Origin: Eledone cirrhosa
Lineage: Eukaryota
DNA length: 64,000 nt
Reading direction: 5' to 3'
Assembly (NCBI GenBank): GCA_964016885.1
Contig: OZ024753.1
Coordinates: 27,404,001 to 27,468,000, forward strand
The notes beneath the pieces were generated by a model. It saw only the letters and a program-made list of their open reading frames with translations, was not told the DNA's origin and did no database searches. Positions 4,405 to 63,273 of this stretch are shown one piece after another; within the stretch, counting starts at the first letter, position 1; every line of letters begins with the position of its first letter. The translations under genes and the position numbers were made by a program.

Positions 4405-4469
4405 TATTTTGTCTGATGAAGGCATACCACAATTTAACTTGGTATCCTGGAAATATGTATAATGAAATA
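4405..4469 (+). ncRNA. Type I hammerhead ribozyme in a pLTR fragment related to family H
   Basis: TATTTTGT-CTGATGA-AGGCATACCA..TGGTATCCTG-GAAA-TATGTAT-A-ATGAAATA. Homologous to 59067-59132. Confidence 0.65.
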
Positions 4470-4868
4470 AATATGGTTTTATAAATATAGTTTCCATTTG
4501 TTAATATCGTATGTATATATATATATATATATAATATATAATATATATATATATATATATATATATATATATATATATATATATATATATATATATATAT
4601 ATATATATATATATATATATAATATATATAATATATATATTATATATATATATATATATATATATATATATATATATATATATATATATATATATATATA
4701 TATATATAATATATATATAAATATATATATATAATATATATATATATATATATATATATATATATATAGTAATAATAGTAAAATTGAAGACTAAAATCCA
4801 AAGAGGGCTCGATAAGGAAAATATATATCAAATATATAAGAACCGTAGAGCAAATATTTATTAAAATA

Positions 4869-4944
4869 ACAGATTAAAGTTTAAGCAAAGAATCGCTGCT
4901 TTCACCCTTAACGGGATCTTCTGAAACAAACAAAGTCAATCTGT
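4869..4944 (-). ncRNA. Type I HHR with U4A core (CAGAAGA), family A 3' end
   Basis: Read in the plus copy at 15977-16050: AGTTT-CAGAAGA-T-CCC gttaa GGG-T-GAAA-GCA gcgattctt TGC-T-T-AAACT, with a distal pairing CAGATT/AATCTG. Confidence 0.65.
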
Positions 4945-5770
4945 AAACGCAGAACTGGATATTTCAAAAAACGTTGCAACCGGAGGAAGACAGGAAGACG
5001 ATACGTTGGTTCGTCGTAACGTTCACTGGCAAAGAACGGGAAAAAACGAATAATACGTCATTAATAGGAGCGGTGAAAAACAATTACGCGCAAAGACAGA
5101 ACCACGTTTATGGTATAAAAGAGGTCGTAGACTAATGTTCTCTTAGGTGGTGCATAGAGACGTTCTCTGGCAATGAACGAAAAAACGAAGTTAATAAGTC
5201 ATATGTGGAGCGTGGAGAACAATAGCACGCAAAGACAAAATCACGTAAATGGTAAGCAGAAGTCGTAGACTAAAATTCTAACTAGGAGACCAAATGAATC
5301 TCCGCTACAGAGTTAAGAACAAAGTAAATAAATACAATACAGAAGTAATAGGAACAACTAAATACATACACGCAAACAGATACGTACATACACAAGCATA
5401 CGCAAAACCTTACCATAGGTATACAAAACCACGCACATATAAATATGTGTGTGCGTGTATGCTTGTGTACAAATAAATAAATAATTATATAAACGTATAT
5501 GAGTAAATAAATACGTGTATAACAAGCGCACACGCATACCTACATATAAATACACGAATGTTCGGAGACGTAAGTCAACTAAAACAAGAAGTACACATAT
5601 ACACACATCCACCATACGTACGAACCTGCATACTCACGCAGACGCAAAACTCCCGTATACACATAGCCAAACCCTAAATACCAGAATATGTAAAAATTAT
5701 ACGCCATAACAGTCAAATATACGTACGAGAAGGTATACATACCTTCACAAAACATACGGGTAATATATAC

Positions 5771-7306
5771 TTACCTATGCAAATAAGGAAAGGAATAAAC
5801 AAACATATACTTAGCTCCCACATCAAGACGTAAAATATCCACGTATAGATCGTGCTGTCCGTTAAGGTATAACGTGGGGCTGTAATACAGGAAAGTTTTG
5901 TGCAATTTATGTTTACAAGCCGAAATTGCCTCAGATTTTTTGGTCTGTGGCGTAGAGTATTTCCAGGGCCTCAGCGGCGCAGAGGTCACATGGTCTTTTA
6001 TTTTCGTTATACGATCTAGCCCTAGCTAGGATCTCCCAGTGTAACTTATATTGGGTGTGGTTGTCTTTTAGACTCCAGATATAAGCTGAAAGTGACGTCA
6101 TATTCCTTCTTAGAGGGTAACGAAAAGAATGCGTATGCATGTAAAGACGCTGCTTGAAACTATTGGCGGTTAACCCTATGTAGGCCCTACATAGGGTTAC
6201 AACCTTACATTTGTAGACAATGTTACTAGAGAGGCATTTCCCGGATAGGGGCAATCAGCCCGATTCCTACAATTACAGTTAATACTAACTACAGGGTTGC
6301 ACGTGTTCCTACAGCTAGGTAGTTTAGATAAATTTGAAGCTGTGATGTTATGTGCAAGGTTAGGTGTCGTAGAGTAAGAAATTTTAATAGTATTTCTATT
6401 AAAAACTTTACTATATTTATGTGTAGGGGCAAAATACTTCGTAATAAGGGAAAGAAAGATCTTAGCTAATGGTGTGGCCACCTCCATAATATATGGTGGG
6501 TTAAACCAACAAATGCGACGGGATCTATTTCTTCTAGGTCTATTTTCGTACTCTGTATATGCTACCTTATCGACAAATCCACTTCGAGCAAGAGCTTCAT
6601 TGTAATAAGTGGAATGGTCGTTGAAAATGCGCTCGTTGGTGGAAAGACGGGAAAGCCTCAACGAAACGTTTCATACCAGGTTCTTGGTTGTGCTGGCAGG
6701 ATGGTTGGAATGCTTACTTATGTAATTAAGTGTATCATTCGGCTTTCTATACGGGTAATACAACCCATTCAATAAATTGAGGGTAACGTCGAGGTAATTA
6801 AAAACCGAGAGATTGGCCTCAACCTGTATAGAGAGGTTGAAGCCTTTAAAGAAGGCTGTGAGTTCTTTTCTGAACCTGTCGCAAGCACGAGGTCCGCACT
6901 TACTCATGGTCAAAAGACCATCGTCACGGTACAAACCACCGCCCGCGTTGGGGAATTCGTCCTTGATAGAGAAAAGAAGGAAAAGGCCAATAAGATCAGT
7001 AACCTCCGCAGAGTCACTGGGGCCCATACTCACGTAGAATGGGGTACTATTGGATTTTTTAATCCAAATAGAGTCGTCGAAATTAATCACCGACTTTCGG
7101 GCATTAAGGATGACATCAACTTCGAAATCCTTAACCACTGTGAGTGTTTTAGCGAAATTGATAGCTCTAAGGAGAAGTGGTAAAGTGATGGAGGAGTAGT
7201 AATTGTTGATGTCGAATTGGATAAAACGGCAATGTTCCTTGTTACATATGCCTTTGAACCAATCAATCACCGCGAAAGAATTGTTCCACAGTGCCAGAGG
7301 GGCCAA
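5771..7306 (-). pseudogene. Disrupted RT plus GIY-YIG endonuclease ORF of family A
   Basis: ORF pieces 6671-7306, 6197-6661, 5931-6254 and 5771-5989 are joined by one TGA and two frameshifts. Confidence 0.9.
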
Positions 7307-7450
7307 ACTTCTAATTTATATATATATATATATATATATATATATATATATATATATATATATATATATATATATATATATATATATATATATATATATA
7401 TATATATATATTATTATATATATATTATATATATATATATATATATATAT

Positions 7451-60272: not shown

Positions 60273-61197
60273 ATAAGTTGGAAACAAAAAAATGAAAACG
60301 AAATTTCATTTCTCACTCTTAGTATGGCACTTACTTAAATGTAAGTATGTATGTATACGTACATACATATATGTATACAGACGTACAGTAGCATGCACAT
60401 ATATACATATACATACATATATATATATACATATATATACATATATATACATACATGCACACAGGTACACATACATATATGCACGCATCAGTTTAGCCGA
60501 CGTTTATTATAACGCAGCTTTGTTCGTTTGTTTGTCAACAAACAGAACAGCCTGAATTTATGCCATACGGTGTTAAGGCAACCACGTCACCTTTTTGTTC
60601 AACACTGACACAGGAACGATGTACTAGTTTCAAGCTTGTTAGCTATCATCAGCACCGTTTACCCATCTGCCAGATAGTTGAACGTTCGAAAGTATATACT
60701 TTCCTTATGAAAATTAACGGCTGAGCAGCCTAATTTGCATATTGAGTGAGTTAAATCGGTCAGGCATACCGAAAACGATAAGTTGGAAACAAAAAAATGA
60801 AAACGAAATTTCATTTCTCACTCTTAGTATGGCACTTACTTAAATGTAAGTATGTATGTATACGTACATACATATATGTATACAGACGTACAGTAGCATG
60901 CACATAACATATATACATATACATACATATATATATATACATATATATACATTATATATACATACATGCACACAGGTACATCATACATATATGCACGCAT
61001 CAGTTTAGCCGACGTTTATTATAACGCAGCTTTGTTCGTTTGTTTGTCAACAAACAGAACAGCCTGTGGTGCATGTATGTATATATATGTATATATATGT
61101 ATATATATATATGTAGTTGTATATGTAGATATGTGCATGCTACTGTACGTCTGTATACATATATGTATGTACGTATACATACATACTTACATTTAAA
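60273..61197 (-). mobile_element. ORF-less HHR tandem repeat, 505-bp unit x1.6 plus an inverted piece; HHR at 60616-60658
   Basis: ATAAGTTGGAAAC at 60273 and 60778. Same family as 7451. Confidence 0.85.
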
Positions 61198-62776
61198 TAT
61201 AATATATATATATATATAATATATATATATATAATAGTGTATATATGATATAATATATATATATATATATATATATATATATATATAATGTATATATATA
61301 TAATATATATATATATAATATATATATATATATAATATATATATATAATATATATATATATAATATATATATATATATATAATATATATATATATAATAT
61401 ATATATATATATATATATATATATATATATATATATTATATATAATATATATATATACATATAATATATATATAATATATATATATATATATATATATAT
61501 ATATATATATATATATATATATATATATATATATATATATATATAATATATATATATATATATATAATATATATTTATATATATAATATATATATATATA
61601 TATAATATATATATATATATATATAATTAATATATATAATATATATATAATAGATATATAATATATATATATATAATATATATATATATATATTAATATA
61701 TAATATATGATATATATATATATAATATATATATATATATAATATATGTATATATAATATATATATATATAATATATATATATATATATAATATATGTAT
61801 ATATAATATATATATATATATAATATATATATTATATAATATATATATAATATATATATAATATATATATATATATATATATATATTATATAATATATAT
61901 ATATTATATATATAATATATATATATATAATATATGTATATATAATATATATATATATAATATATATATATATATAATATATGTATATATAATATATATA
62001 TATATAATTATATATATATAATATATATATATAATATATATATATATAATATATATATATAATATATATATATATAATATATATATAATATATATATATA
62101 TAATATATATATATATATATATATAATATATGTATATATAATATATATATATATAAATATATATATTATATATAATATATATATATTATATATAATATAT
62201 ATATATTATATATATATAATACATATATATTATATATAATATTATATATAATATATATATATAAAATATATATATAATATATATATATAATATATATATA
62301 ATATATATATATAATATATATATATATATATAATATATATATATAATATATATATATAATATATATATAATATATATATATATAATATATATATATATAT
62401 ATATAATATATATATATAATATATATATATATATATATAATATATATATATATATATATAATATATATATATATAATATATATATATATATATTAATATA
62501 TATATATATAATATATATATATATATATATAATATATATATATAATATATATATATATAATATATATATATATAATATATATAAAAATAATATATATATA
62601 TATATAATATATATATATAATATATATATTATATATAATATATATATATATAATATATATATATATATATATATATATATATATATATATATATATATAT
62701 ATATAAATATATATATATATATATAATATATATATATATAATATATATATATATAATATATATATATATATATATA

Positions 62777-62835
62777 TAAAATAAGTAGTTTAGAAAGCCA
62801 CAACATTGTTGTGGCTTTCTAAACTACGTATTTTA
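62777..62835. repeat. Near-perfect palindrome adjoining (TA)n
   Basis: gtagtttagaaagccacaaca-t-tgttgtggctttctaaactac. Confidence 0.9.
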
Positions 62836-63225
62836 CACATTTCACAATGCTTCAAGCAAACTTTAACACCCTCTTATATATATATATATATTATATATAT
62901 AATAATATATATATAATATATATATATATATATATATATATAATATATATATATAATATATATATATATATAATATATATATATATATATATAATATATA
63001 TATATATATAATATATATATATATATATATAATATATATATAATATATATATATATATATATATATATATATATAATATATATATGAAAAGTGTAATTTT
63101 CTACACAAAGCGAAGGTTATAGAGAAAATTGAGGTTGGTAATGGCACATGGAATATATAAGAGACAGAATACTTTTTTGTGAAAAAACATAATTTTATAA
63201 GGTAAGGAAATAATAAAGGGTATAA

Positions 63226-63273
63226 AAAATGACCGGTTTCGATGGGTCTGCAAAAGCCATCTTTTCAAATGTT
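63226..63273 (-). ncRNA. Minimal HHR with U3-A8 core
   Basis: AACAT-TTGAAAA-GATGG..CCATC-GAAA-CCGG-TC-ATTTT. Confidence 0.65.

What the first reader, a model, noticed from the sequence alone, without database searches (positions are those of the whole stretch)
4405..63273. Dense collection of natural hammerhead core variants, with a recurring mismatch at 10.1-11.1
Seen: U3-A8 cores (15502, 30922, 44842, 63226), U4C (23529, 54063) and U4A (family A). The first pair of stem II, usually G-C, is U-U (7807, 16336, 20308, 23529, family A), A-A (38616, 25927, 44842) or A-G (54063). Each family has its own stem III palindrome: CUAG, CACGUG, CAUAUG, CAAUUG, UGCGCA, CGUACG, CCGG, UAUAUA. Inference: the mismatches may tune cleavage down so that full-length RNA survives. 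Distinct palindromes could act as family-specific dimerisation codes.
Basis: partly seen in the sequence, partly recalled or inferred. Interest (0 to 1): 0.72.

Follow-up and report, generated by a model that had tools for sequence, protein, structure and literature searches.

The report
Variant hammerheads of Hydra-type Penelope retroelements
This stretch of animal DNA is a pile-up of jumping genes (Penelope-like elements) whose ends carry about thirty hammerhead self-cutting RNA motifs, and in the two families checked in other genomes their odd core letters are inherited traits rather than decay; most oddities were already in print, the motifs likely cut slowly, and one core change (U4A) was not found in the papers searched.

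Summary
Observation confirmed. A type I hammerhead descriptor gives 29 hits (28 motifs) against 0.77 per shuffle. With damaged copies these form 17 families, most at the ends of Hydra-clade Penelope-like elements in (TA)n. Every named variant is present; 9 of 17 families lack a pair at 10.1-11.1.

Not decay where testable: family A (U4A, U·U) and the CUAG family (U·U) keep these letters in all window copies and show no fixed reversion in four public runs. One other organism has C at position 4.

Largely known: U·U is in 14 of 25 published Hydra-clade consensus hammerheads (Craig 2021, File S2). U3-A8, U4C, U·U and palindromic dimer stems were already reported.

The 'dimerisation code' is not supported: two diverged families share CUAG, distinct 6-mers are expected by chance (P 0.79), and stem I alone blocks most cross pairs. 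'Tuning down' is plausible but untested, and canonical families also spread with an uncut 3' ribozyme.

What remains new is U4A fixed in a family, the A·A/C·A/A·G forms, and a 616-bp retrozyme-like array. The scan noted Penelope hammerheads before on other DNA.

The parts
4228..4268 (-). F1 (family A) hammerhead, position 3 to 17: U4A, U·U; stem II damaged in this copy
4883..4923 (-). F1 hammerhead: U4A, U·U, 3-bp stem II, long stem III; about 950 nt after the Hydra-type ORF at 5876-7306
15998..16038 (+). F1 hammerhead (the copy checked against public runs)
25103..25143 (+). F1 hammerhead, stems II and III damaged, U4A and U·U kept
28297..28337 (+). F1 hammerhead, best-paired copy
32323..32363 (+). 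F1 hammerhead with a damaged GAAA box, U4A and U·U kept
4413..4461 (+). F2 copy, diverged (A·G at stem II base, imperfect palindrome)
55088..55137 (-). F2 hammerhead, A-U pair, UAUAUA; inverted copy at the 5' side of the 55489-57736 element
59075..59124 (+). F2 hammerhead, A-U pair, UAUAUA; 1339 nt after the ORF end
7813..7843 (-). F3 hammerhead, U·U, CUAG
16342..16372 (-). F3 hammerhead, 76% identical copy, U·U and CUAG kept
60622..60652 (-). F3 hammerhead, U·U, CUAG
21425..21455 (-). F6 hammerhead, canonical G-C, CUAG; aligns without gaps to F3
12598..12681 (-). F4 hammerhead, U3-A8, G-C, long stems II and III; inverted copy at the 5' side of the 12944 element
15507..15590 (+). F4 hammerhead, U3-A8, G-C; 1115 nt after the ORF end
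20317..20394 (+). F5 hammerhead, U·U, long stem III with CUAG in its loop; single copy, no ORF linked
23538..23614 (+). F7 hammerhead, U4C, U·U, CAAAUG (imperfect), 3-bp stem I; single copy
54068..54106 (+). F8 hammerhead, U4C, A·G, CAAUUG; single copy
25932..26039 (+). F9 hammerhead, A·A then G-C, CAUAUG, stem I damaged; upstream of the ORF at 26228; sister of F10
32782..32892 (-). F10 hammerhead, A·A then A-U, about 90-nt stem II, CACGUG
34471..34580 (-). F10 hammerhead in the 3' repeat of the intact element
38621..38730 (-). F10 hammerhead in the 5' repeat; predicted cut 210 nt before the ATG at 38411
30928..30958 (+). F11 hammerhead, U3-A8, G-C, CGUACG; 2-bp stem I after a 21-nt duplication
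31302..31371 (+). F12 hammerhead, C·A then G-C, CUAAUUAG; single copy
40764..40798 (-). F13 ordinary Penelope-type hammerhead: extra G after A9, then G-C
44341..46455 (+). F14: 3.4 tandem units of 616 bp, each with a U3-A8 hammerhead (44847 A·A, 45463 A·A, 46079 C·A), long stems; retrozyme-like
47591..47636 (+). F15 hammerhead, U-A pair, CCACUGG; damaged copies at 42539 and 43965
50835..50889 (-). F16 hammerhead, A-U pair, UGCGCA; stem I cross-compatible with F2
63231..63268 (-). F17 hammerhead, U3-A8, G-C, CCGG; 2 contiguous stem I pairs
36093..38411 (-). Open 773-aa RT plus C-terminal endonuclease ORF with Hydra-clade motifs, between identical 483-bp repeats (34429-34911, 38579-39061)
12944..14392 (+). 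5'-truncated Hydra-type ORF linked to F4
55489..57736 (+). Hydra-type ORF with one frameshift, linked to F2
5876..7306 (-). 5'-truncated, broken Hydra-type ORF, likely the element that carries family A

Best explanation
These are the terminal-repeat hammerheads of many Penelope-like retroelement families, mostly with Hydra-clade ORFs, piled into (TA)n tracts, and their variant cores are likely inherited, tolerated forms of a ribozyme that likely needs only to cut slowly. Steps. (1) Shown: type I hammerheads lie about 600-1600 nt after, or under 300 nt before, Hydra-type ORFs in 9 of 17 families. (2) Shown for F1 and F3: U·U and a non-U at position 4 are family traits. (3) Shown: in F3 against F6, U·U sits exactly where G10.1-C11.1 does. 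(4) Inferred: a transcript running through two terminal repeats carries two identical hammerheads; the 13 families with short stem III would cut only as a strand-swapped homodimer through the palindrome, while F1, F4, F5 and F14 could fold alone. (5) Inferred: the cut would free the ORF-bearing RNA from the upstream transcript, while templates for new insertions stay uncut at the 3' copy. (6) Inferred: weak demand on speed lets the core drift among tolerated forms. Palindromes change by paired substitutions and differ between families as a by-product; partner choice would come from proximity in cis and from stem I.
For: 29 hits against 0.77 per shuffle. Hydra motifs RW[KR], DKT, CxCx5C, CxxC and CxH in the ORFs, matching Craig 2021 section 11. 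Public runs: window-private changes show near 100% (16051, 16320, 16334) but none of the 40 listed rows falls at the four U·U positions or gives U at position 4; the main X1 contig is identical over 15916-16020; position 15999 is C in 21507 of 26965 depth in X7. U·U in 14 of 25 published Hydra-clade families. Gap-free F3/F6 alignment; A·A kept while the next pair changes on both sides in F9/F10. 10 of 13 short stems III are fully self-complementary and none folds alone. Published: low activity of PLE hammerheads; hammerhead mutants do not affect insertion in vitro and uncut RNA is the main template; a natural U·U motif cleaves 22% as monomer and more as dimer.
Against: No cleavage was measured. 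One search hid 214 rows, and the weakest shown row reaches about 77% in its best run, so substantial canonical minorities cannot be excluded. Only 2 of 9 mismatch families were tested against outside data; F5, F7, F8 and F12 are single copies. U·U in 14 of 15 published mismatches is more specific than pure drift predicts. F2 and F16 share stem I but differ in palindrome. Eight families are not firmly tied to an ORF. The hammerhead fold is a minor predicted state for F1 (P at most 0.01).
Confidence: 0.68

Rival explanations
1. Selected attenuation plus family code: mismatches are favoured because they slow cutting, and palindromes diversify to stop cross-family cutting.
For: Mismatches are family traits and U·U recurs across three phyla. 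U·U and U4C lower activity in print. F2/F16 can form 8 cross pairs in stem I and differ only in stem III. In F1 and F8 the letter at position 4 pairs with 11.1 in a predicted competing helix.
Against: CUAG kept between F3 and F6 while stems I and II diverged. Five H. magnipapillata families share one stem III. Distinctness is expected by chance. Canonical families spread too. The 4-11.1 pairing fails in F7 and in the X7 organism, and shifts the predicted gap by only 0.2-1.6 kcal/mol.
Confidence: 0.17
2. Numbering artefact for part of the set: the A·A and C·A cases are an intact G10.1-C11.1 pair flanked by the known extra base after A9 and one more A before G12, not a mismatch at 10.1-11.1.
For: The next pair is G-C in 3 of 4 such families (F9, F12, F14). 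The extra base after A9 is a Penelope signature. The same layout is in the Chara PLE-X1 row of File S2.
Against: F10 has A-U as next pair and F8 has U-A. It cannot apply to U·U, which replaces G-C without gaps.
Confidence: 0.35
3. Post-insertion decay: the variants are random damage in dead copies.
For: True for single copies: 25103, 32323, 43965, 42539, 4413, stem I of 25932. Single-copy families are untested.
Against: 6 of 6 F1, 3 of 3 F3 and 3 of 3 F10 copies share their variants; outside runs agree; published consensus sequences carry U·U.
Confidence: 0.07

Closest known systems
Hammerheads of Hydra-clade Penelope-like elements (Craig et al. 2021, PMC8557442, File S2)
   Same: Type I, near the 3' end, (TA)n targets, short near-palindromic stem III; U·U at the stem II base in 14 of 25 families, U·C in 1.
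   Different: All 25 listed have CUGANGA. None shows U4A, U4C, U3-A8, A·A or A·G, stems II of 50-90 nt, or long stems III; their descriptor may have excluded these.
Minimal and palindromic PLE hammerheads (Cervera and De la Pena 2014, PMC4209133)
   Same: U3-A8 (about 1,300 hits in Schistosoma), palindromic stem III, dimer model, low activity, high family diversity. Fig. S3 text shows U·U-like rows for Hydra and Drosophila willistoni.
   Different: They call G10.1-C11.1 highly conserved and describe a one-sided extra base; here 9 of 17 families have no pair at that place.
Natural hammerhead core variants (Perreault et al. 2011, PMC3088659)
   Same: U3-A8, U10.1·U11.1, U4C (viroid), palindromic loop III dimers.
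   Different: U4A does not occur in the main text; A·A, C·A, A·G not seen in the passages read; no double variants such as U4A with U·U.
Animal non-LTR retrozymes (Cervera and De la Pena 2020, PMC7229834)
   Same: Tandem non-coding units with one type I hammerhead each; axolotl Amex2 has U·U. Fits F14.
   Different: F14 unit is 616 bp against about 170-400 nt, with U3-A8, A·A and long stems; no RNA evidence here.

Membership tests
Type I hammerhead ribozyme | Core boxes with stems I, II, III in type I order and an NUH site | tested here: met
   28 motifs pass the descriptor, 0.77 expected; 4 families have stem I of 3 pairs or fewer
Type I hammerhead ribozyme | Canonical U4 and paired 10.1-11.1 | tested here: not met
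   Non-U4 in 3 of 17 families, unpaired 10.1-11.1 in 9 of 17; known active variants exist for U·U and U4C
Type I hammerhead ribozyme | Rfam covariance model match | tested here: not met
   0 matches at gathering thresholds; the E-value mode was not run
Type I hammerhead ribozyme | Self-cleavage at position 17 | not testable with these tools
   No RNA run was listed
Penelope-like element | Single ORF with RT and C-terminal GIY-YIG-type endonuclease between terminal repeats, tandem and inverted partial copies | tested here: met
   773-aa ORF between identical 483-bp repeats; inverted 5' copies at 12581 and 55122; Pfam GIY-YIG hits on 3 of 27 ORFs, none on the 773-aa ORF itself
Hydra clade | RWK and DKT motifs in RT | tested here: met
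   RW[KR] and DKT in the 3 ORFs that keep the N-terminus
Hydra clade | CxCX5C linker, CxxC and CxH near the C-terminus, no CX2-5CxxC finger | tested here: met
   CxCx5C in 6 of 17 translated frames; the CX2-5CxxC finger only in the separate 8765-10019 / 17815-18912 family
Hydra clade | Insertion into (TA)n | tested here: met
   26 of 29 hits have a TA tract within 300 nt downstream; no background control was run in this TA-rich window
Hydra clade | Placement in an RT tree with reference elements | not tested
   Reference proteins were cut in the supplement text
Non-LTR retrozyme (F14 only) | Non-coding tandem units, each with a type I hammerhead, strongly folded | tested here: met
   3.4 units of 616 bp, no PLE protein match, z -5.3 on 20 shuffles
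Non-LTR retrozyme (F14 only) | Unit of about 170-400 nt | tested here: not met
   616 bp against the published range
Non-LTR retrozyme (F14 only) | Expressed as circular RNA | not testable with these tools
   No RNA run was laid

The most novel reading that the evidence does not exclude
Hydra-clade elements run a separately evolved, deliberately slow hammerhead: a non-canonical 10.1-11.1 pair (U·U, A·A, A·G) with a free position 4, including U4A fixed in an abundant family, and in some families a competing helix pairing position 4 with 11.1 that holds the ribozyme off until the element's protein or a partner copy refolds it. This would be a natural allelic series that sets how much template escapes cutting.
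Probability: 0.17. Interest if true: 0.62.

Novelty: new variant of a known kind. Interest (0 to 1): 0.36.

Why it matters
The role of hammerheads in Penelope elements is open: they are present across the group yet dispensable in the one in vitro insertion system. This window offers sister families that differ at exactly the contested positions: F3 against F6 (U·U or G-C, same palindrome), F9 against F10, F2 against F16 (same stem I, different palindrome), and family A with A or C at position 4 in different organisms. These make the attenuation and code ideas cheap to test. It also shows that standard searches miss such motifs (Rfam 0 of 28). The class itself and most variants are known, which limits the surprise.

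Tried and rejected
No whole genome is held for the window, so no genome-wide consensus. Related-locus scans with the ORF alignment found no relative in metagenome, viral or prokaryote contigs. A family A pattern gave 5 metagenome matches, all lacking position 3 and the stems, taken as chance. No RNA holder listed. My first label 'Neptune-like' for the main ORFs was dropped after reading the Hydra definition. The motif at 3788 has no GAAA after its stem and was dropped. The F9 row was off by one base and was redone. An early note that hidden rows stay under 48% was wrong and was corrected to about 77%. F7 and F8 share core and stem ends, but their flanks align poorly, so they are counted apart. 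Lunse et al. 2017 is not held and may already show some of these variants. A guessed PMC id returned an unrelated paper. The mutational-scan paper gave no per-base values in its text; its supplement was listed, not read. Searches for U4A (0 papers), for 10.1/11.1 with U4C (0) and for G10.1/C11.1 with mismatch (0) cover open-licence PMC and bioRxiv only.
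Full report
Setting. The window is AT-rich animal-type DNA, full of (TA)n tracts. No genome is held for it and the host was not determined. Translation and tblastn show about a dozen RT/endonuclease fragments on both strands. One open 773-aa ORF (36093-38411, minus strand) lies between identical 483-bp repeats, with further partial copies in tandem. It has 216 homologues among 7996 candidates scored; the 120 listed are 30-44% identical. The ORFs carry RW[KR], DKT, CxCx5C, CxxC and CxH, the features given for the Hydra clade of Penelope-like elements (PMC8557442, section 11). 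One other family (8765-10019, 17815-18912) has a Neptune-type finger and no hammerhead that my descriptor found. No RT tree was built.

Observation. A strict type I descriptor finds 22 motifs against 0.33 per local dinucleotide shuffle. A version allowing either register at stem II finds 29 hits, 28 distinct motifs, against 0.77. Six damaged or truncated copies were added by eye. By blastn and alignment these make 17 families, plus one truncated U·U motif at 34285. Rfam finds none. At the first stem II position 9 of 17 families are unpaired (U·U 4, A·A 3, C·A 1, A·G 1), 5 are G-C and 3 are A-U or U-A. Position 4 is A in F1 and C in F7 and F8. U3-A8 occurs in F4, F11, F14 and F17. Nine families lie 607-1563 nt after, or under 300 nt before, a Hydra-type ORF (F1, F2, F4, F7, F8, F9, F10, F11, F15); the F1 link rests on one copy.

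Trait or decay. In the window, 6 of 6 F1 copies keep U4A and U·U although three are damaged elsewhere, 3 of 3 F3 copies keep U·U at 76-95% identity, and 3 of 3 F10 copies plus the sister F9 keep A·A while the next pair changes on both sides. I laid four of the 24 listed runs (four studies, three organism labels) on 15890-16600, which covers F1 and F3 only. Letters private to the window copy appear at about 98-100% where covered (16051, 16320, 16334). None of the 40 listed rows falls at the U·U positions (16005, 16017, 16352, 16365) or gives U at position 4. The main X1 contig matches 15916-16020 exactly. At 15999 the letter C has 0 of 747 depth in X1, 686 of 1.88 million in X2, 6 of 4959 reads in X24, and 21507 of 26965 in X7. 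So position 4 reads A in two organisms and mostly C in a third. Limit: 214 rows were hidden and the weakest shown row reaches about 77% in its best run, so this excludes a fixed canonical consensus, not a canonical minority. The best holder may be the window's own source. Seven mismatch families were not tested this way.

What the mismatch is. F3 and F6 align without gaps across the ribozyme, with U·U in one and G-C in the other, so U·U truly replaces 10.1-11.1. The A·A and C·A cases are ambiguous: in 3 of 4 the next pair is G-C, so they may be the known extra base after A9 plus an extra A before G12.

Palindromes. Ten of 13 short stems III are fully self-complementary, none folds as a hairpin alone, and the homoduplexes of those ten are -3.2 to -10.5 kcal/mol. 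That fits the published dimer model. The code idea does not follow. F3 and F6 share CUAG while their other stems diverged, and F5 has it in a loop. Six distinct 6-mers out of 64 arise by chance with P 0.79. Five H. magnipapillata families share one stem III. Stem I alone separates families: 13 of 17 self pairs reach 4 or more base pairs, against 10 of 272 cross pairs. F1, F4, F5 and F14 have long stems III and need no partner.

Mechanism. By inference, a transcript across two terminal repeats holds two identical motifs that would cut slowly, as a dimer for short-stem families. In F10 the upstream cut would fall 210 nt before the ATG and the downstream cut 42 nt before the (TA)n junction. Genomic 3' ends keep the sequence beyond the cut site, so their templates were likely uncut there. 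This holds for canonical families too, so mismatches are not required for template survival. In print, PLE hammerheads cleave weakly (PMC4209133); in the anole element catalytic mutants do not change insertion in vitro (PMC11167929); mutations in the CUGA turn give low activity (PMC9901934); U·U is the best tolerated mismatch and U4C lowers activity but works in a viroid (PMC3088659). Relaxed demand on speed explains the spread of variants most simply; selection for slowness remains possible. One lead: in F1 and F8 the base at position 4 pairs with 11.1 in the predicted lowest-energy fold, hiding the core. The effect is 0.2-1.6 kcal/mol, and it fails in F7 and in the X7 organism.

Comparison with print. 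File S2 of Craig 2021 lists hammerheads of 25 Hydra-clade families (one listed twice, counted once): by my reading U·U 14, U·C 1, G·U 2, G-C 7, extra G plus A-U 1, under the heading 'canonical'. Cervera 2014 reports U3-A8, palindromes and dimers, and its Fig. S3 text shows U·U-like rows for Hydra and D. willistoni (PDF column order not kept). Axolotl Amex2 with U·U was assayed (PMC7229834). U4A gave 0 papers and 0 occurrences in Perreault's main text; these searches miss subscription papers, and Lunse 2017 could not be read. What I saw: PMC4209133 main text parts 1-2 of 4 and supplement parts 1-2 of 3; PMC8557442 passages, section 11 and supplement parts 2-3 of 59; bioRxiv 10.64898/2026.07.22.740005 part 1 of 5; passages only of PMC3088659, PMC6765202, PMC7229834, PMC11167929, PMC9901934 and PMC6155905.

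Verdict. Real, dense and correctly read. It is a new variant set within a known kind. The recurring mismatch is a clade trait already present in published tables, the code idea is unsupported, and attenuation is untested. What remains new is U4A as a family trait, the purine mismatch forms, and the 616-bp array. Interest 0.36.

Noticed in passing
44341-46455: 3.4 tandem 616-bp units, 99.4-99.7% identical, between (TA)n tracts; no PLE protein match; the hammerhead is the predicted lowest-energy fold (P 0.68) and the cut-to-cut unit folds at z -5.3. Retrozyme-like but long.
   Followed up: partly
28285-28350 and 54056-54118: In F1 (A4, U11.1) and F8 (C4, G11.1) position 4 is complementary to 11.1 in a predicted competing helix that hides the GAAA box.
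   Followed up: partly
34220-34345: Perfect fold-back of a truncated 3' end with another U·U hammerhead core at 34285; its 5' stem I strand is missing.
   Followed up: no
8765-10139 and 17695-18912: Two 97%-identical inverted copies of a Neptune-type element with shared flanking repeats; no hammerhead found by either descriptor.
   Followed up: no
12581-12951, 55122-55225, 25838-26040: Inverted copies or fold-backs of the terminal repeat at the 5' side of elements, a known Penelope arrangement.
   Followed up: partly
12598-12681 and 50201-50490: F4's long stem III carries a self-complementary loop in two of three copies, so it could also dimerise; the 50201 copy has lost its first core box.
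   Followed up: no
1-3454: Three tandem units of about 1.13 kb, each half (TA)n-like and half a 560-bp unique part at 97-99% identity; no hammerhead found.
   Followed up: no
4298-4354: 57-bp near-perfect hairpin at the truncation point of the family A copy at 4268.
   Followed up: no
51677-51876: Assembly gap of 200 N, next to a 234-bp inverted repeat (51877-52110, 53425-53658).
   Followed up: no
16339 and 16375: Within F3, stem I switches between U·G and G·U by a change on both sides, seen in window copies and in the runs.
   Followed up: yes
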